This document shows, piece after piece, positions 1-5,999 of a DNA stretch of 64,000 bases (positions are counted from its first letter, which is position 1; each line of letters begins with the position of its first letter). The stretch lies in IMG/VR virus record IMGVR_UViG_3300036770_000417, positions 1,694-65,693 of that record; one strand, 5' to 3'. The translations under genes and the position numbers were made by a program. A model generated the notes under the pieces. The model was not told where the DNA came from, made no database searches, and saw nothing but the letters and a program-made list of their open reading frames with translations. This DNA comes from a virus. Lineage: Duplodnaviria > Caudoviricetes.

Positions 1-3
1 ACT

Positions 4-1059
4 ATGTTCGACGGCGCCATCCTGTCGTGGCGGTTCGGTATCAGGCCCAAGGCGTATCTGGACACGCTGTCCATGGCGCGCGCCCTGCACGGCACCGAGG
101 TAGGCGGGAGCCTCAAGGTGCTCGTCGAACGCTACGGGCTGGGTGCCAAGGGCACTGAGGTGCTCAACGCACTGGGTAAGCGCCGCCGGGACTTCACCGA
201 GGAAGAACTCAGCCGGTATGGGGACTACTGCGTCAACGACGTGGAGCTGACCTACAAGCTGTTTCACAAGATGGGTGCGGGCTTCCCGAAAAAGGAGCTC
301 AAGCTGATCGACCTGACGCTACGCATGTTCACTGAGCCGGTGCTGGAGCTCGACCGCCCGCACTTGGAGCAGCACCTCGACGCCACCGTGAAGATGAAAG
401 AGCAGCTGCTGGTGGACGCAGGGGTGACGGACAAGGCAGACCTCATGTCCAACCCGAAGTTTGCACAGCTGCTGACGCAGTTAAGCGTGAGCCCTCCGAC
501 GAAACTTAGCCCCACGACTGGCAAGGAAGCCTTCGCGTTTGCCAAGAGCGACGAGGAGTTCAAGGCACTGCTGGAGCATGAGGACGCACGGGTGCAGGCG
601 CTGGTCGCCGCAAGACTGGGTAACAAGTCAACGCTGGAGGAGACCCGCACGCAGCGGTTCATCAACATCGCCGAGCGGGGCACCCTACCGGTGCCTATCC
701 GATACTACGCAGCACACACGGGGCGCTGGGGTGGTTGCTTAGTTGCCGATACAGAGGTAACGGTGTTTGACAAAACTCGCGGAGTCTGCAAGAAGAAGAT
801 CGTCGATGTACTGGCTGACGACCTTGTGTGGGATGGCGTGGAGTTCGTCGCACATGACGGTGTTGTATTCAGCGGCTACGCCGAGGTCATCGAGTGGGAC
901 GGAGTGCGGGGGACCGAGGACCATGTCGTATTTACAGACGCCGGAGAGATTAGCCTACGAGACGCGAAAGCGGGAGGCCACAACATCCAAACTGCAGGCA
1001 TCCCTGACAAAGACGCTGTGGACTCGGCTCGACACTGGGTTAGTGAGTACGAAGAGTAA
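4..1059 (+). CDS. polA: DNA polymerase family A, N-terminal part (5'-truncated by window edge) fused to N-half of split intein
   Basis: 3'-5' exonuclease-like motifs (FD..IL, LDTLSMAR, YCVNDVELTY) and YYAAHTGRWGG, immediately followed by intein block A CLVADTEV. Confidence 0.9.
   Translation: MFDGAILSWRFGIRPKAYLDTLSMARALHGTEVGGSLKVLVERYGLGAKGTEVLNALGKRRRDFTEEELSRYGDYCVNDVELTYKLFHKMGAGFPKKELKLIDLTLRMFTEPVLELDRPHLEQHLDATVKMKEQLLVDAGVTDKADLMSNPKFAQLLTQLSVSPPTKLSPTTGKEAFAFAKSDEEFKALLEHEDARVQALVAARLGNKSTLEETRTQRFINIAERGTLPVPIRYYAAHTGRWGGCLVADTEVTVFDKTRGVCKKKIVDVLADDLVWDGVEFVAHDGVVFSGYAEVIEWDGVRGTEDHVVFTDAGEISLRDAKAGGHNIQTAGIPDKDAVDSARHWVSEYEE
736..1059 (+). mobile_element. Split intein N-fragment (IntN, 107 aa)
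   Basis: Starts with Cys (CLVADTEV, block A); has block B GTEDHVVFT; ends at TAA 1057-1059 with no C-terminal HN motif. Confidence 0.88.
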
Positions 1060-1690
1060 GGTCCGCTGTCGGTGTACCTGCGGGCGCGAAGCACAAGTGC
1101 GTGTTGCTGAGTTGTTAGCAGGAAAATCGCGCAGCTGTCGGTCATGTAGTGTGAGGTTGAGGATGGCTAGACTGCCGCCAGACCTACGCGTGCAGCTGGC
1201 TAAGAACGCTTCGACCGCGGCGGTGGCCGCGGTCGCCAAGCGAGAAGACCATCTTGTATCTGAGTTCGGCGCTGCTGCGGTCAGGTCTGTGCTGAACATA
1301 CTGTCGGGAGCCAAGCAACGATGCACGAACCCCAACTGTAGCCAGTACGCGGGCTACGGGCTTCGGGGTATAGAGTTTCGATTCCCGTCTGTGCGCGCCG
1401 GTGCGGAGTGGCTGCTCAAGAACATAGGCCCTCGACCGGCAGGCAGGTTCAGTCTCGACCGTATCGACAACAACCGACACTACGAACCGGGAAACCTCCG
1501 GTGGGCTACATACAGCGAACAGGCCCGCAACAAGCGTACGTATATACGCACTAAGGCGGGAGAGCGGATTCGGGTGCTCATGCAGCAGCGCTCCGATCTA
1601 ACCTATGAAACCGTGCGCCTATGGATAAAGCAAGGCGCCACCGATGAAGAGATATTAGGGAGAACGAAATATGCTCGTACCAGTGTATGA
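923..1690 (+). CDS. HNH-type homing endonuclease between the split-intein halves
   Basis: CRCTCG..KSRSC zinc motif, KQRCTNPN..YGLRGI, SLDRIDNNRHYEPGNLRWAT..EQARN. The ORF is open from 767; ATG 923 is my chosen start and is uncertain. Confidence 0.85.
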   Translation: MSYLQTPERLAYETRKREATTSKLQASLTKTLWTRLDTGLVSTKSKVRCRCTCGREAQVRVAELLAGKSRSCRSCSVRLRMARLPPDLRVQLAKNASTAAVAAVAKREDHLVSEFGAAAVRSVLNILSGAKQRCTNPNCSQYAGYGLRGIEFRFPSVRAGAEWLLKNIGPRPAGRFSLDRIDNNRHYEPGNLRWATYSEQARNKRTYIRTKAGERIRVLMQQRSDLTYETVRLWIKQGATDEEILGRTKYARTSV

Positions 1691-1748
1691 CATACGCAAC
1701 TGCGGCCCCCGGCACCGGTTTGTGGCTAACGGAAAGCTCGTGCACAAC
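1671..1748 (+). mobile_element. Split intein C-fragment (IntC)
   Basis: Block F VYDI..GPRHRFVANG and block G LVHN, followed by Ser at 1749. Confidence 0.88.
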
Positions 1749-2627
1749 TCGGACAGTATCAACCTGCAGAACCTGCCAAGCCGCGGGCCTAACGCCAAGC
1801 AGATCAAGAAGGCTATCGTCGCACCCGAGGGCTACACACTGATCGAGGCCGACTCATCGCAGATCGAGGCCCGCGTGCTCGCGTGGCTGGCTGGGCAGGA
1901 CGACATTGTTAGTGCCTTCGCTAACAAACAGGACGTCTACAAGAAGATGGCGTCGGCGATCTACAGCAAAGATGAGGGCGAGATCGACAAGCAGGAGCGG
2001 CACGTCGGCAAGACAACGGTGCTCGGATGCGGCTACGGCATGGGGGCGCCGAAGTTCCAAGACGCACTGAAAAACGGCTTCCCGCCTGTGGAGCTCCCGC
2101 TCGACGAGGCCCGCCGAATCATCAACGTGTATCGGGATACCAACTGGAAGATCGTGCAGCTGTGGCGTAACGCGCAGAACGCCCTCGTAGCTATGTCGCG
2201 TGGTGACACGTCACCGATAGACGTCCACGGACTTCTGGAGGTGGTGCCGGACGCACCCGGTATCCGCCTGCCGTCGGGCCTGATCGTGCGCTACGACGAC
2301 CTGCGGTTCGACGAGACCGAGAAGGGCGTGCAGTTCCACTACAACACCCGACAGGGCCGCACGCGTATATACGGCGGGAAGGTTGTGGAGAACGTAACGC
2401 AGGGCGTAGCGCGCTGCATCATCGGCGAGCAGATGTTGAGGATTGCCAAGACGTATCGCGTAGTGTTAACTGTTCACGATAGCATCGTGTGCCTCGTCCG
2501 CGACGAGGAGGTGCCCGAGGCGCAGGCGTTCATCGAGGCAGAGATGCGGCGACCCCCCGAGTGGGCACCGGGGCTGCCGGTGGACTGCGAGTCAGGCGTC
2601 GGAAAAAGCTACGGAGATTGTGAGTGA
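1671..2627 (+). CDS. polA: Split intein C-fragment (26 aa) fused to C-terminal polymerase domain of family A DNA polymerase
   Basis: MLVPVYDI...FVANGKLVHN|S followed by DSINLQNLP, ADSSQIEARVLAWLA (motif A), KTTVLGCGYG (motif B), LTVHDSIV (motif C); GGGAG SD upstream. Confidence 0.92.
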   Translation: MLVPVYDIRNCGPRHRFVANGKLVHNSDSINLQNLPSRGPNAKQIKKAIVAPEGYTLIEADSSQIEARVLAWLAGQDDIVSAFANKQDVYKKMASAIYSKDEGEIDKQERHVGKTTVLGCGYGMGAPKFQDALKNGFPPVELPLDEARRIINVYRDTNWKIVQLWRNAQNALVAMSRGDTSPIDVHGLLEVVPDAPGIRLPSGLIVRYDDLRFDETEKGVQFHYNTRQGRTRIYGGKVVENVTQGVARCIIGEQMLRIAKTYRVVLTVHDSIVCLVRDEEVPEAQAFIEAEMRRPPEWAPGLPVDCESGVGKSYGDCE

Positions 2628-3584: not shown

Positions 3585-5999
3585 ATGGATATCGTCAACA
3601 ATAAGGCGCTGCTGTTGAAGCTGCGCCACCCAAGCCGCGTCACTACGGTCATCGAAAAGAGCCAAGAGGTGCGACCGCACGAAGTGCTGGTGCGCTGGGG
3701 TGTCGACGAGGTGCACAAGCTGCGCGACCTCAACATCTCCGCACCGTCACCGATAGAGGGCAGGTACAACTGGCCCGGACGATGGGCGCCAATGTCGCAC
3801 CAGCGTACCACAGCATCGTTTCTTACCAAGCACCGCAAGGCGTTCTGCTTCTCGGAGCAGGGTACCGGCAAGACTGCCTCGGCCATCTGGGCTGCGGACT
3901 TCCTGATGACGCAGGGCAAGGTGCGTCGGGCACTCGTGGTCTGCCCCATCTCGATCATGGACAGTGCATGGCGCAACGACCTGTTCAACTTTGCGATGCA
4001 CCGGACGGTGGACGTGGCCTACGGCGGTGCGGAGAAACGCAAGAAGATCATCGCAAACGGTGCGGAGTTCGTCATCATCAACTACGACGGCATCGAGGTG
4101 GTGCAGAACGAGATTGCCAACGGGGGCTTCGACCTCATCATCGTAGACGAGTGCTTTGTAGCGGGCACGCCCGTACACACACCAGACGGCCTGACGCTAA
4201 TTGAAAACCTGCGGGTCGGTGACGCGGTCTTTACAAGTAACGGAGTACACAATATAAGTACTGTGTCTAAGCGGAAACCAAGCGCGCTTGTGGAGGTTAC
4301 ACTTGACACTGGAGAGCTCATCACCTGCACTCCGGAGCATCCTTTCTTCACTGACTGGGGTTGGGTGCCCGCCAAAGCTCTTGCAGGTAGACGGATCGTG
4401 TCTGCATCTAGCCTGCCCAATATGCGGGGCGGCGTATACGCTCCGCACGGCGAAGTGGCAGTTTCACCGAAAAGCGGGAACCCACACTGGGATGACTTGC
4501 TCGCGATCCTGCGGTCGGAAGAGGTGGCACCAACTACATCCGGGGGAGTCAGCACTCAAGCGATTGACCGCAGAGCAACGGGCGTTGGGCGTTCGGTCGG
4601 GGTTTCACCGGACAGCGGAGCAGCGAGCACACCTGTCGAAAGTAGCGAAGGAGAGAGGGCTCCGCCCGGTAGTTCGCGGCGGGAACGGAACTGGAATGAC
4701 CGGGCCAGAGAAGCAGCTTTTGCCGACGCTCCCGACGGGGTGGGTATGGAACTTCCCAGTAGCGTTGGGTCGCAGGCAGCGCGGCTTTCCTACGCACTTC
4801 AAGCTAGACTTCGCGTGGCCAGAAAAGAAAATCGGGTTGGAGGTGGATGGAAACAGCCACCGGACGACAAAGGGTCAGGCGCGGGACAAGCGGAAAACGG
4901 AGACGCTTTCGGTGCTCGGGTGGATAGTGTTACGTATCGGAAACCGAGAAGTGACGAATACGTCTACAACCTCGAAGTTGCTGGAACGCCTAACTACTTT
5001 GTTGGGGAACAACGAGCGCTAGCGCACAACTGCACACACTACAAGACGGCAACGACCAAGCGCTGGAAGGTGCTGAACTCTCTGGTGAAGCCGGAGACTT
5101 GGGTGTGGCTGATGACGGGCACACCCGCTGCACAGTCACCGCTGGACGCCTATGGTCTGGCTAAGCTGGTCAACCCCAACAACGTGCCGCGGTTCTTTGG
5201 CTCGTTCCGGGATCAGATTATGACGAAGCTGACGCAGTTTCAGTGGGTGCCGAAGGCAAACGCATCGGAGGTCGTGTTCAACGCACTGCAACCTGCCATA
5301 CGGTTCACGAAGGCCGAGTGCTTGGACCTCCCTGAGATGGTGTACGTCAAACGGGAGATCGCCCTGACCAAGCAGCAAGTGAAATACTACAACCTGCTGA
5401 AGCAGCGTATGGTCATGGAGGCCGCAGGCGAAGAAGTCACCGCGGTCAACGCCGCCGTGAACATGAACAAGCTTCTGCAGATCAGTGCGGGGGCTGTCTA
5501 CGCCGACAGCGGCGAGGCGCTGGAGTTCGACATCCAGCCTCGCTACCAAGTGCTGCAGGAGGTCATCGCCGAGACCAAGAACAAGGTGCTCGTGTTCGTG
5601 CCGTTCAAGCACACCATCGACCTGCTCACGACTAAGCTGCGCGCTGATGGGGTGAGTACCGAGGTCATCCGAGGCGATGTGCCTGCCAGCAAGCGCACCG
5701 AAATATTCAAGGCGTTCCAAGAGCAGCCTAACCCCCGCGTGCTGGTGATTCAGCCGCAGTCAGCCGCGCATGGTGTGACACTGACCGCAGCCGACACGGT
5801 AGTGTGGTGGGGGCCCACGCCGTCACTGGAGACCTACGCACAAGCCAACGCGCGCGTGCACCGCACGGGGCAGAAGAACAAGTGCACTGTCGTACAGCTG
5901 TACGGCTCGCCTGTAGAAAAGCGTGTCTATGCGATGCTCGATAACAGGATTGACGTCCACACAAGAATGATCGAGTTATACAAAGATATGCTTGACTAG
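3585..5999 (+). CDS. SNF2-like superfamily 2 helicase containing an intein
   Basis: EQGTGKT (Walker A), IIVDE|CTHYK (Walker B split by intein), MTGTP, HGVTLTAA, QANARVHRTGQ; GAGGAG SD. Confidence 0.92.
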   Translation: MDIVNNKALLLKLRHPSRVTTVIEKSQEVRPHEVLVRWGVDEVHKLRDLNISAPSPIEGRYNWPGRWAPMSHQRTTASFLTKHRKAFCFSEQGTGKTASAIWAADFLMTQGKVRRALVVCPISIMDSAWRNDLFNFAMHRTVDVAYGGAEKRKKIIANGAEFVIINYDGIEVVQNEIANGGFDLIIVDECFVAGTPVHTPDGLTLIENLRVGDAVFTSNGVHNISTVSKRKPSALVEVTLDTGELITCTPEHPFFTDWGWVPAKALAGRRIVSASSLPNMRGGVYAPHGEVAVSPKSGNPHWDDLLAILRSEEVAPTTSGGVSTQAIDRRATGVGRSVGVSPDSGAASTPVESSEGERAPPGSSRRERNWNDRAREAAFADAPDGVGMELPSSVGSQAARLSYALQARLRVARKENRVGGGWKQPPDDKGSGAGQAENGDAFGARVDSVTYRKPRSDEYVYNLEVAGTPNYFVGEQRALAHNCTHYKTATTKRWKVLNSLVKPETWVWLMTGTPAAQSPLDAYGLAKLVNPNNVPRFFGSFRDQIMTKLTQFQWVPKANASEVVFNALQPAIRFTKAECLDLPEMVYVKREIALTKQQVKYYNLLKQRMVMEAAGEEVTAVNAAVNMNKLLQISAGAVYADSGEALEFDIQPRYQVLQEVIAETKNKVLVFVPFKHTIDLLTTKLRADGVSTEVIRGDVPASKRTEIFKAFQEQPNPRVLVIQPQSAAHGVTLTAADTVVWWGPTPSLETYAQANARVHRTGQKNKCTVVQLYGSPVEKRVYAMLDNRIDVHTRMIELYKDMLD
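4152..5030 (+). mobile_element. Intein (293 aa) inserted in helicase Walker B
   Basis: CFVAGTPV (block A), ITCTPEHPFFT (block B), VYNLEVAGTPNYFV (block F), AHN|C (block G); the middle ~190 aa has no recognisable domain in this frame. Confidence 0.92.
4303..5022 (+). CDS. Vsr/DUF559-like (EDxHD-type) homing endonuclease nested in +1 frame inside the helicase intein
   Basis: CPICG..CSRSCG zinc motif; KLDFAWPEKKIGLEVDGNSH..QARDKRK..LGWIVLRI catalytic core. The ORF is open from 4288; candidate TTG start at 4303 lies 5 nt after GGAGGT. Confidence 0.85.
   Translation: MTLESSSPALRSILSSLTGVGCPPKLLQVDGSCLHLACPICGAAYTLRTAKWQFHRKAGTHTGMTCSRSCGRKRWHQLHPGESALKRLTAEQRALGVRSGFHRTAEQRAHLSKVAKERGLRPVVRGGNGTGMTGPEKQLLPTLPTGWVWNFPVALGRRQRGFPTHFKLDFAWPEKKIGLEVDGNSHRTTKGQARDKRKTETLSVLGWIVLRIGNREVTNTSTTSKLLERLTTLLGNNER

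What the first reader, a model, noticed from the sequence alone, without database searches (positions are those of the whole stretch)
4152..5030. Intact intein whose homing endonuclease is a separate gene nested in the +1 reading frame
Seen: the helicase intein reads without a stop from Cys (4152) to His-Asn (5030). Its ~190-aa middle looks like a featureless Ser/Gly/Arg linker. The same DNA in the +1 frame (open 4288-5022) encodes a zinc motif (CPICG..CSRSCG) and a clear Vsr/DUF559-type core (LDFAW..LEVDGNSH..RDKRK..GWIVLRI). This nested ORF overlaps intein blocks B and F and stops 8 nt before the splice junction. A TTG at 4303 sits 5 nt after GGAGGT. Established: intein endonucleases are normally in frame, and Vsr-like endonucleases are known as free-standing genes between split-intein halves. 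Inference: about 700 bp is dual-coding, so the endonuclease could be expressed independently of the host protein (internal start or +1 frameshift) while cis-splicing is kept. I am not aware of this arrangement being described.
Basis: partly seen in the sequence, partly recalled or inferred. Interest (0 to 1): 0.9.

Follow-up and report, generated by a model that had tools for sequence, protein, structure and literature searches.

The report
Helicase intein with overlapping +1-frame endonuclease
A phage helicase gene carries a self-splicing protein insert (intein) whose middle also encodes, one base out of step, a complete Vsr-like DNA-cutting "homing" enzyme; the layout is real, kept by selection and common in phages, but this kind of layout has already been described for other inteins.

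Summary
The 804-aa SNF2 helicase ORF (3585-5999) contains a 293-aa intein (4152-5030, Cys1 to His-Asn, then Cys+1). A 244-aa ORF (4288-5022) lies inside it in the +1 frame and scores above Pfam's cut-off for DUF559.

In all 131 related loci examined, the endonuclease homologue is +1 to a longer open host ORF carrying an intein after the DE of helicase motif II. The loci are 3 cultured phages, 80 viral contigs, 45 genome contigs and 3 metagenome contigs.

- **Host frame kept open:** chance predicts an open host frame with median P <= 0.0005.
- **Selection switches frame:** variation peaks at host third positions in the exteins, but at endonuclease third positions in the overlap core.
- **Folds:** the +1 product folds as a zinc module plus a Vsr-like nuclease (Z about 11). 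The host-frame product folds as a HINT domain with a linker predicted to be disordered, about 160 aa.
- **Own start:** a Shine-Dalgarno-preceded start is enriched.

Out-of-frame or antisense intein endonucleases are already in print: Gorbalenya 1998 as cited, and Gogarten-lab preprints of 2025-26. This scan also noted helicase cases on other DNA. Verdict: a new member of a known kind.

The parts
3585..5999 (+). SNF2-family helicase precursor ORF (804 aa), intein included
   Evidence: ORF. Pfam SNF2-rel_dom 56.6 bits, Helicase_C 57.8 bits.
3585..4151 (+). N-extein (189 aa), ending at the D-E of helicase motif II (...IIVDE)
   Evidence: The alignment to the intein-free helicase of Pseudomonas phage Rollin places the junction inside motif II.
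4152..5030 (+). Intein in the host frame (293 aa): Cys1, block B T-x-x-H (TPEH), C-terminal His-Asn
   Evidence: C1, H63, H292 and N293 are invariant in 50 aligned inteins.
4152..4415 (+). N-terminal splicing lobe of the intein (about residues 1-88)
   Evidence: AlphaFold2 pLDDT 96-98 for residues 1-80 and 84 for 81-90. Variation peaks at host third positions.
4416..4901 (+). Host-frame linker (about residues 89-250), low-complexity and predicted disordered. It exists as the by-product of the +1 gene.
   Evidence: pLDDT 39-57 for residues 91-250. In this stretch variation peaks at host first positions, which are the third positions of the endonuclease frame.
4902..5030 (+). C-terminal splicing lobe of the intein (about residues 251-293, blocks F and G)
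   Evidence: pLDDT 85-97. VYNLEV and HN are conserved.
5031..5999 (+). C-extein, starting with Cys+1 (CTHYK...), plus the stop codon
   Evidence: Helicase_C domain at residues 655-762.
4292..4297 (+). Shine-Dalgarno-like GGAGGT, 5 nt before the TTG at 4303. It is built from the Glu-Val codons of the intein strand LVEV.
   Evidence: The same GAGGT-N5-TTG (ATG in some) recurs in the close relatives.
4303..5022 (+). Nested homing-endonuclease gene in the +1 frame, 239 aa from the SD-preceded TTG. The frame is open from 4258 and the first start codon is TTG 4288. The stop is TAG 5020-5022.
   Evidence: DUF559 in 71 of 71 aligned homologues.
4414..4512 (+). Four-cysteine zinc module of the endonuclease (C38, C41, C66, C70 counted from TTG 4303)
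   Evidence: C38 and C41 are invariant; C66 and C70 are conserved in at least 90% of 71 sequences. Modelled as strands with pLDDT 81-94. Weak profile matches to eL24-type zinc modules, E about 0.01.
4681..5019 (+). Vsr/DUF559-like nuclease domain of the endonuclease (residues 127-239)
   Evidence: VIA-align Z 11.4 (3hrl), 11.1 (3r3p, I-Bth0305I), 10.7 (1cw0, Vsr) over model residues 127-239. D169, E180, G183, H186, D195 and K198 are invariant.

Best explanation
The window comes from a complete 65.7-kb phage genome. Its SNF2-type helicase gene is interrupted, right after the Asp-Glu of motif II, by a class-1 intein.

The same DNA is read in two ways:

- Host frame: ribosomes make one 804-aa precursor. 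The intein's two HINT lobes are joined by a featureless linker of about 160 aa. The lobes fold together, splice out the intein and restore the helicase (DE-C-T-H).
- +1 frame: ribosomes that start inside the intein, most likely at the SD-preceded TTG at 4303, make a separate 239-aa protein. It consists of a four-cysteine zinc module, a helical region and a Vsr/DUF559-like nuclease.

This protein is the element's homing endonuclease. It would cut intein-free helicase alleles in co-infecting phages, and repair would then copy the intein and its nested gene into them.

Selection divides the DNA between the two readings. The endonuclease frame is constrained in the linker. The intein frame is constrained where the endonuclease's leader and tail overlap blocks B and F/G. 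The host frame is kept free of stops throughout.

Shown: both ORFs, both homologies and folds, conservation of the layout, the switch of frame under selection, stop avoidance, and enrichment of start signals.
Inferred: protein splicing, translation from 4303, DNA cleavage and homing.
For: - ORFs, coordinates and motifs are as stated.
- Pfam: DUF559 at 35.2 bits (cut-off 20.6) for the +1 product. Intein_splicing and Hint_2 are above their cut-offs for the host-frame intein.
- Layout in the first 84 sequences (83 loci plus the window): the endonuclease homologue (180-357 aa open frame) lies +1 to an open host frame of 488-1818 aa in all 84. The third frame is closed in all 84, with open stretches of 1-70 aa. 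The inteins sit at DE|C...HN|C/S of helicase motif II; HN[CST] was found near the nested stop in 83 of 84 rows.
- Further loci: the same layout holds in 45 of 45 genome-contig loci and 3 of 3 metagenome loci.
- Host frame open in 75 of 75 distinct sequences. Synonymous resampling gives median P(open) <= 0.0005, maximum 0.16, window 0.0015.
- Pairwise differences by codon phase in 20 distinct close relatives, given as host positions 1/2/3:
  - N-extein 0.31/0.23/0.54
  - C-extein 0.33/0.24/0.56
  - intein N lobe 0.22/0.17/0.47
  - overlap core 0.43/0.25/0.25
  The peak in the overlap core falls on the endonuclease frame's third position. Amino-acid identity there is 0.65 in the endonuclease frame and 0.48 in the host frame.
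- AlphaFold2, endonuclease: mean pLDDT 84. The nuclease domain matches 3hrl (Z 11.4, rmsd 2.4, 88 aligned), 3r3p I-Bth0305I (Z 11.1, rmsd 3.4, 92 aligned) and Vsr 1cw0 (Z 10.7, rmsd 2.4, 99 aligned).
- AlphaFold2, host-frame intein: pLDDT 96-98 (residues 1-80), 39-57 (91-250) and 85-97 (251-293).
- SD-preceded start upstream of the zinc motif in 57 of 72 distinct loci, against 197 of 1421 same-length control windows.
- No indels in the contigs of 4 runs.
- The closest cultured extein relatives lack the intein. The phi673 paper reports an intein in the phi673 helicase and none in phi674, at 85% genome identity.
Against: - No experiment or expression data bears on splicing, on translation of the +1 ORF or on cleavage. 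No RNA run was listed.
- The GAGGT before TTG 4303 is made of Glu-Val codons of a conserved intein strand. Its conservation could therefore reflect the intein frame rather than a ribosome-binding role.
- TTG is a weak start codon.
- 15 of 72 distinct loci had no SD-like motif by my rule.
- Foldseek E-values for the whole model were all above 0.001.
- The sequence link to I-Bth0305I is weak (profile E 0.036).
- One library protein (P0070) carries N-extein, intein N lobe and endonuclease in a single frame. Fused or fractured forms may therefore exist.
- The 80 viral loci are the best 80 of 151 hits. The other 71 were not examined.
Confidence: 0.85

Rival explanations
1. Assembly or sequencing artefact. 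Two compensating indels have shifted an ordinary in-frame intein endonuclease out of frame in this record.
For: This is the default suspicion for any frame switch in a metagenome-derived record. Only contigs could be laid, not raw reads, and two of the four runs may be the source of this DNA.
Against: The same +1 relation holds in 131 of 131 independent loci, including three cultured phages. No in-frame form appeared among them. Contigs of four runs show no indel over 3900-5300. The phase of variation switches as expected for a real second frame.
Confidence: 0.01
2. The endonuclease is not translated on its own. It is made by a programmed +1 ribosomal frameshift, as a fusion of N-extein, intein N lobe and endonuclease.
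For: In the window the +1 frame is open for 15 codons upstream of TTG 4303. One library protein, P0070 (496 aa), has N-extein, intein N lobe and endonuclease in one frame. The proposed start is a weak TTG.
Against: SD-preceded starts are enriched about four-fold over control windows (57 of 72 against 197 of 1421). The start at the equivalent position varies between TTG and ATG among close relatives. In 6 loci (L037, L044, L059, L066, L067, L080) an in-frame stop directly precedes the ATG, leaving no room for a shift site. I noticed no conserved slippery motif, but I ran no formal scan. The three relatives of P0070 that I could fetch are ordinary +1 nested forms.
Confidence: 0.06
3. The nested ORF is real, but it is no longer a homing endonuclease. 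It is either decaying or has been recruited to another role, such as DNA binding, regulation, or exclusion of competing phages.
For: Homing was not tested. The window's copy differs from most relatives in the helical region between the zinc module and the nuclease. DUF559 proteins occur in many settings that have nothing to do with homing.
Against: All residues that are invariant in 71 sequences are present in the window's copy: C38, C41, P122, G127, G129, P163, D169, E180, G183, H186, D195, K198, L202, G206, W207 and N214. Selection acts on this frame. The element is present or absent among close phages. It sits in different helicase families at the same motif, which fits a mobile element.
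Confidence: 0.08

Closest known systems
Non-canonical actinobacteriophage inteins with endonucleases in another frame or strand (Gosselin, Arsenault and Gogarten, bioRxiv 10.1101/2025.01.02.630785; I read the abstract, sections 8 and 15, and passages)
   Same: A contiguous intein whose homing endonuclease is a separate ORF overlapping the intein coding sequence. The host frame stays open. The authors propose that a free-standing endonuclease gene invaded an intein. A Vsr-like endonuclease is among their types, with an HHpred link to 3R3P.
   Different: Their Vsr-like endonucleases are antisense, and their same-strand case is an endonuclease VII-like gene in 'frame 3'. [quoted passage not shown] Here the leader and tail overlap blocks B and F/G. 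I could not see their supplementary tables.
Cyanobacterial dnaX intein with an out-of-frame LAGLIDADG endonuclease (Phillips, DeSimone and Gogarten, bioRxiv 10.64898/2026.09.14.751524; I read the abstract, section 17 and passages)
   Same: A same-strand overlapping ORF with putative SD motifs. Purifying selection acts on the endonuclease frame and constraint on the host frame is relaxed in the overlap. The host-frame middle is not a folded endonuclease.
   Different: The endonuclease family is LAGLIDADG, the frame is +2, the host is cellular (cyanobacteria) and the extein is DnaX. Here the endonuclease is Vsr/DUF559-like, the frame is +1, and the hosts are phage SF2 helicases.
Fractured genes: split inteins with a free-standing Vsr-like or GIY-YIG endonuclease gene between the halves (Dassa et al. 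2009, PMC2677866; passages read)
   Same: The same broad endonuclease type (Vsr-like), a phage setting, replication genes as hosts, and short overlaps between the endonuclease 3' end and the downstream intein part. The same window holds a fractured PolA of this kind.
   Different: The helicase here is one unbroken 804-aa ORF with a contiguous intein. The endonuclease is wholly nested in it and does not sit between two genes.
I-Bth0305I, a homing endonuclease encoded in a group I intron of phage 0305phi8-36 recA (PDB 3R3P; Taylor et al. 2011, PMC3239194; search listing and start of abstract only)
   Same: The catalytic domain has the same fold (Z 11.1, rmsd 3.4, 92 residues aligned, 24% identity). 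It is a phage homing endonuclease.
   Different: It is encoded in an intron, not in an intein. Sequence similarity is marginal (profile E 0.036). The N-terminal zinc module found here was not compared.

Membership tests
Class 1 intein (HINT domain) | N-terminal Cys/Ser, block B T-x-x-H, C-terminal His-Asn, and a nucleophile at +1 | tested here: met
   Cys at 4152, TPEH in block B, His-Asn at 5025-5030, Cys at 5031. C1, H63, H292 and N293 are invariant in 50 inteins.
Class 1 intein (HINT domain) | HINT family score and fold | tested here: met
   Pfam Intein_splicing 37.9 bits (cut-off 35.8) and Hint_2 31.5 bits (cut-off 28.4). AlphaFold2 pLDDT 96-98 and 85-97 for the two beta-rich lobes. I ran no fold search on this model.
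Class 1 intein (HINT domain) | Protein splicing activity | not testable with these tools
   Only indirect support: the host frame is kept open in 75 of 75 distinct sequences against a chance expectation of <= 0.0005.
DUF559 / Vsr-like nuclease (PF04480) | Family profile score above the curated cut-off | tested here: met
   35.2 bits against 20.6. 71 of 71 aligned homologues match at E <= 0.001. The profile matches the DUF559 structure 3hrl at E 4.9e-11.
DUF559 / Vsr-like nuclease (PF04480) | Vsr-type restriction-endonuclease-like fold | tested here: met
   Z 11.4 (3hrl), 10.7 (1cw0) and 10.0 (1vsr) over model residues 127-239. Foldseek probability is 0.96-1.00 for these matches, but all E-values are above 0.001.
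DUF559 / Vsr-like nuclease (PF04480) | Catalytic acidic and His residues in place | tested here: inconclusive
   D169, E180, H186, D195 and K198 are invariant, and D182 is conserved in at least 90%. I did not map them residue by residue onto the Vsr or I-Bth0305I active sites.
I-Bth0305I-type (EDxHD) homing endonucleases | Sequence membership and the named motif | tested here: inconclusive
   Fold match Z 11.1, but profile E is only 0.036. The motif name is taken and from recall. I did not check the motif against the alignment.
Non-canonical inteins with the endonuclease in a separate overlapping ORF | An endonuclease ORF inside the intein in another frame or strand, with the host frame open across it | tested here: met
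   Window. 131 of 131 related loci.
Non-canonical inteins with the endonuclease in a separate overlapping ORF | Purifying selection on the endonuclease frame in the overlap | tested here: met
   Phase switch: 0.43/0.25/0.25 in the overlap core against 0.31/0.23/0.54 in the N-extein.
Fractured gene / split intein with a free-standing endonuclease (Dassa 2009) | Host gene broken into two ORFs that carry separate intein halves | tested here: not met
   The helicase is one 804-aa ORF. The neighbouring PolA does meet this feature.

The most novel reading that the evidence does not exclude
This is one example of a large family that, in the literature I could search, has not been reported. In this family a sense-strand Vsr/DUF559-type homing endonuclease is always written in the +1 frame of inteins at the DE| site of SF2 helicase motif II. 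The family counts 131 of 131 loci examined and 957 cluster representatives at E <= 1e-30.

The two genes are entangled, not merely stacked:
- the endonuclease's ribosome-binding site is made from conserved Glu-Val codons of the intein;
- its stop codon is often made from the Leu-Val codons of block G.

On this reading neither partner can easily be lost or shifted into frame, and the endonuclease can be expressed independently of the helicase.
Probability: 0.45. Interest if true: 0.6.

Novelty: new member of a known kind. Interest (0 to 1): 0.5.

Why it matters
**For intein biology.** It adds a very large and uniform set of examples to a layout that the literature I read calls rare. This includes cultured, tractable phages of Pseudomonas, Vibrio cholerae and Corynebacterium glutamicum. 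It extends the layout to a sense-strand Vsr-like endonuclease and to helicase motif II. It supports the view that inteins gain endonucleases when free-standing genes invade them. The same genome also holds a fractured PolA with a split intein and an HNH gene. The two proposed outcomes of invasion therefore sit 2.4 kb apart.

**For annotation.** Gene callers that forbid long overlaps on one strand will tend to miss these endonuclease genes. None of the three fetched phage records (MR14, 104E43.1, phi673) annotates one.

**For overlapping-gene evolution.** The data give a clean natural case in which selection switches frame along one stretch of DNA.

Tried and rejected
**Searches that found little or nothing**
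- Megablast of the helicase gene against phages found nothing.
- phmmer of the single +1 protein against PDB gave only 3hrl at E 0.043. The profile search did better.
- Foldseek against PDB gave no match at E <= 0.001 for the two-domain model. VIA-align gave Z about 11 for the nuclease domain. The zinc and helical N-terminal half was not searched on its own.
- PHROGs named only two families of unknown function.

**Expression and reads**
- No RNA holder was listed for the stretch, so nothing can be said about expression.
- Only contigs could be laid. In all four runs they break near 4740-4769. Run X4 has no cover over about 4370-4698 and one loose end at 4736. I did not explain this. The 34-mer at 4736-4769 occurs once in the window, and the genome holds one endonuclease copy.

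**In-frame or free-standing forms**
- The profile search returned proteins of 158-496 aa among the best 150, but it gives no genomic context.
- P0070 looks like an N-extein, intein N lobe and endonuclease fusion. Its DNA could not be obtained, and its three relatives at 29-49% identity are nested +1 forms. Whether true free-standing or in-frame forms exist in this family therefore stays open.
- 71 of the 151 viral hits were not returned and not examined.

- My first automatic call of intein N-termini picked a wrong upstream Cys in several loci. I dropped those loci and built A4 from 49 of the 67 candidate inteins plus the window. All of those kept have DE directly before Cys1.

**Literature**
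- Searches. In that library I found no paper describing a sense-strand +1 Vsr-like endonuclease in a helicase intein.
- Subscription journals and supplementary tables were not visible. This includes Gosselin's table of clusters.
- I did not see Gorbalenya 1998. I cite it only as the two preprints cite it.

**Rejected readings:** sequencing artefact, decaying pseudogene and frameshift fusion (see rivals).
Full report
**Observation.** The window's + strand carries an 804-aa ORF at 3585-5999. Pfam assigns SNF2-rel_dom and Helicase_C to its two ends and intein/Hint families to the middle. The raw sequence shows the following.
- TGC at 4152 is in frame, directly after ...IIVDE.
- CAC AAC at 5025-5030 is followed by TGC at 5031.
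- The 293 codons between them are free of stops.
- In the +1 frame an ORF runs from 4288 to 5022 (244 aa).
- GGAGGT lies at 4292-4297, 5 nt before an in-frame TTG at 4303.
- The +1 product scores 35.2 bits on Pfam DUF559 (cut-off 20.6).

**The layout is conserved.**
- tblastn of the +1 protein against 50,697 phage records found 43 records at E <= 1e-3. Each of the 30 listed matches lies under a CDS annotated as a helicase, a hypothetical protein or the like.
- I fetched three of these records: Pseudomonas phage MR14, Vibrio phage 104E43.1 and Corynebacterium phage phi673. In each, the match starts at an offset of 1 (mod 3) from the annotated CDS. Each has a 209-241 aa ORF nested +1 in an 848-917 aa helicase ORF with a DE|CF...HN|CHH intein.
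- A pattern scan of IMG/VR with the four-protein alignment found 151 relatives, of which the best 80 were returned.
- A script re-mapped the match in all 83 loci and the window. It measured the stop-to-stop frame through the middle of the match in all three + frames.
  - In 84 of 84, the endonuclease frame is open for 180-357 aa.
  - In 84 of 84, the frame one base upstream of it is open for 488-1818 aa and covers the whole match.
  - In 84 of 84, the third frame is closed (open stretches of 1-70 aa).
- The host ORFs all show an intein right after the DE of helicase motif II. HN[CST] lies near the nested stop in 83 of 84 rows. The exteins are of several kinds, resuming with CNAYK, CHH or SSILK.
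- The same layout holds in 45 of 45 loci from bacterial and archaeal genome assemblies of many phyla. It also holds in 3 of 3 metagenome loci.
- In total, 131 of 131 related loci show it.
- A profile search of 1.84 billion cluster representatives found 957 at E <= 1e-30, so the endonuclease family is large.

**It is not chance or error.**
- For each of 75 distinct sequences (of 84) I kept the endonuclease protein from the zinc motif onward. I redrew its synonymous codons 2000 times from the codon usage of the same host gene.
- The host frame came out open with median probability <= 0.0005 (maximum 0.16; window 0.0015), yet it is open in all 75 real sequences. The third frame carries 2-31 stops in the real sequences.
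- This holds in loci of 30-45% G+C, where long accidental open frames are not expected.
- Contigs of four runs laid on 3900-5300 show no inserted or deleted letters. All four runs belong to one study, two may be the source, and contigs cannot show rare variants.

**Which frame is selected where.** In 20 distinct sequences of the window's own clade (41-54% identity in the endonuclease), I counted pairwise differences by codon phase.

| Region | Host position 1 / 2 / 3 |
|---|---|
| N-extein | 0.31 / 0.23 / 0.54 |
| C-extein | 0.33 / 0.24 / 0.56 |
| Intein N lobe | 0.22 / 0.17 / 0.47 |
| Overlap core | 0.43 / 0.25 / 0.25 |

- Host third positions vary most in both exteins and in the intein N lobe.
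- In the overlap core (zinc motif to GWIVLRI) the peak moves to host first positions. These are the third positions of the +1 frame.
- Amino-acid identity in the core is 0.65 in the endonuclease frame, 0.48 in the host frame and 0.45 in the third frame.
- In the endonuclease's leader (TTG to zinc motif, over block B) and in its tail (over blocks F and G), the peak returns to host third positions.
- So the endonuclease is constrained in the linker and the intein is constrained at its splicing blocks.

**Folds.**
- AlphaFold2 on a 71-sequence alignment of the +1 proteins gave mean pLDDT 84. The model has a small beta module with the four cysteines, helices, and an alpha/beta domain at residues 127-239.
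- VIA-align matched that domain to the DUF559 protein 3hrl (Z 11.4), the homing endonuclease I-Bth0305I, 3r3p (Z 11.1), and Vsr, 1cw0 and 1vsr (Z 10.7 and 10.0).
- Foldseek ranked the same entries with probability 0.96-1.00, but all E-values were above 0.001.
- 71 of 71 aligned proteins match DUF559.
- Invariant residues include C38, C41, D169, E180, H186, D195 and K198.
- AlphaFold2 on 50 host-frame inteins gave pLDDT 96-98 for residues 1-80, 39-57 for 91-250 and 85-97 for 251-293. This describes a HINT domain whose two lobes are joined by a linker predicted to be disordered.

**How the endonuclease is made.**
- In the window's clade, a start codon preceded by GAGGT sits at the same place, 35-37 codons before the zinc motif. 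It is TTG in most and ATG in some.
- More distant relatives mostly have an ATG either 35-55 or 2-15 codons before the motif.
- By a fixed rule (GGAG, GAGG, AGGA or AGGT ending 4-14 nt upstream), 57 of 72 distinct loci have such a start. Same-length control windows in the same frame of the same genes have one in 197 of 1421 cases.
- In 6 loci an in-frame stop directly precedes the ATG. This leaves initiation as the only route there.
- I therefore favour internal initiation over a +1 frameshift. I note that the GAGGT is also the Glu-Val of a conserved intein strand.
- The endonuclease stop lies 8 nt before the junction in 52 of 119 distinct sequences. It overlaps a Leu-Val dipeptide in 45 of 119.

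**Mobility.**
- The closest cultured helicase relatives match in two pieces, without the intein.
- Phage Rollin reads DEAAELK where the window reads DE|intein|CTHYK.
- The phi673 paper states that the phi673 helicase has a putative intein and that of phi674 has none, at about 85% genome identity.
- Together with the spread of the element across different helicase families at one motif, this fits homing. Homing itself was not tested.

**What is known.**
- Gosselin, Arsenault and Gogarten describe actinophage inteins with antisense LAGLIDADG, antisense VSR-like and frame-3 endonuclease VII-like endonucleases. These sit in polymerase, capsid, terminase and thymidylate synthase genes. They credit Gorbalenya 1998 with the first non-canonical cases.
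- Phillips, DeSimone and Gogarten describe a +2 LAGLIDADG ORF in the cyanobacterial dnaX intein, with SD motifs and frame-specific selection.
- Dassa et al. 2009 found Vsr-like endonucleases as free-standing genes between split-intein halves.
- Six full-text searches found no report of a sense-strand +1 Vsr-like endonuclease in helicase inteins. Supplements and subscription journals were out of reach.
- Earlier follow-ups of this scan reported the same kind on other genomes, two of them in phage helicases.

**Verdict.** The element is a new member of a known and recently described kind. Its notable features are its uniformity (131 of 131), the overlap with splicing blocks, and the availability of cultured carriers. 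Splicing, translation start and cleavage are inferred.

Noticed in passing
window 1-2627: The DNA polymerase I gene just upstream is fractured. A PolA N-part ORF ends at 1059 with an intein N-half (...GRWGG|CLVADTEV...). A 307-aa ORF (767-1690) in another frame carries an HNH-like C-terminus. The PolA C-part ORF (1671-2627) starts with a short intein C-half ending VHN|S. This is the Dassa-2009 type of fractured gene, 2.4 kb from the nested-endonuclease intein (first-stage notes e1-6219331 and e1-6219333).
   Followed up: partly
window 4736-4769: In all four runs the contigs break at about 4740-4769. A 34-base piece there has higher depth, and run X4 shows a loose end joining different sequence before 4736. 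The 34-mer is unique in the window, and the genome has one endonuclease copy. A related element or strain variant in the same samples may share this stretch.
   Followed up: partly
library protein P0070: A 496-aa predicted protein carries helicase N-extein, intein N lobe and the Vsr-like endonuclease in one continuous frame. It ends at the endonuclease C-terminus. It could be a fractured or fused variant, or a frameshift error. Its DNA could not be fetched.
   Followed up: partly
L001, L002, L003 (phage MR14, Vibrio phage 104E43.1, phage phi673): None of the three deposited records annotates the nested endonuclease ORF. Only the enclosing helicase or hypothetical CDS is annotated.
   Followed up: yes
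whole window (G000:C1:1694-65693): The window covers nearly all of a 65,693-bp virus record with direct terminal repeats, rated 100% complete.
   Followed up: no
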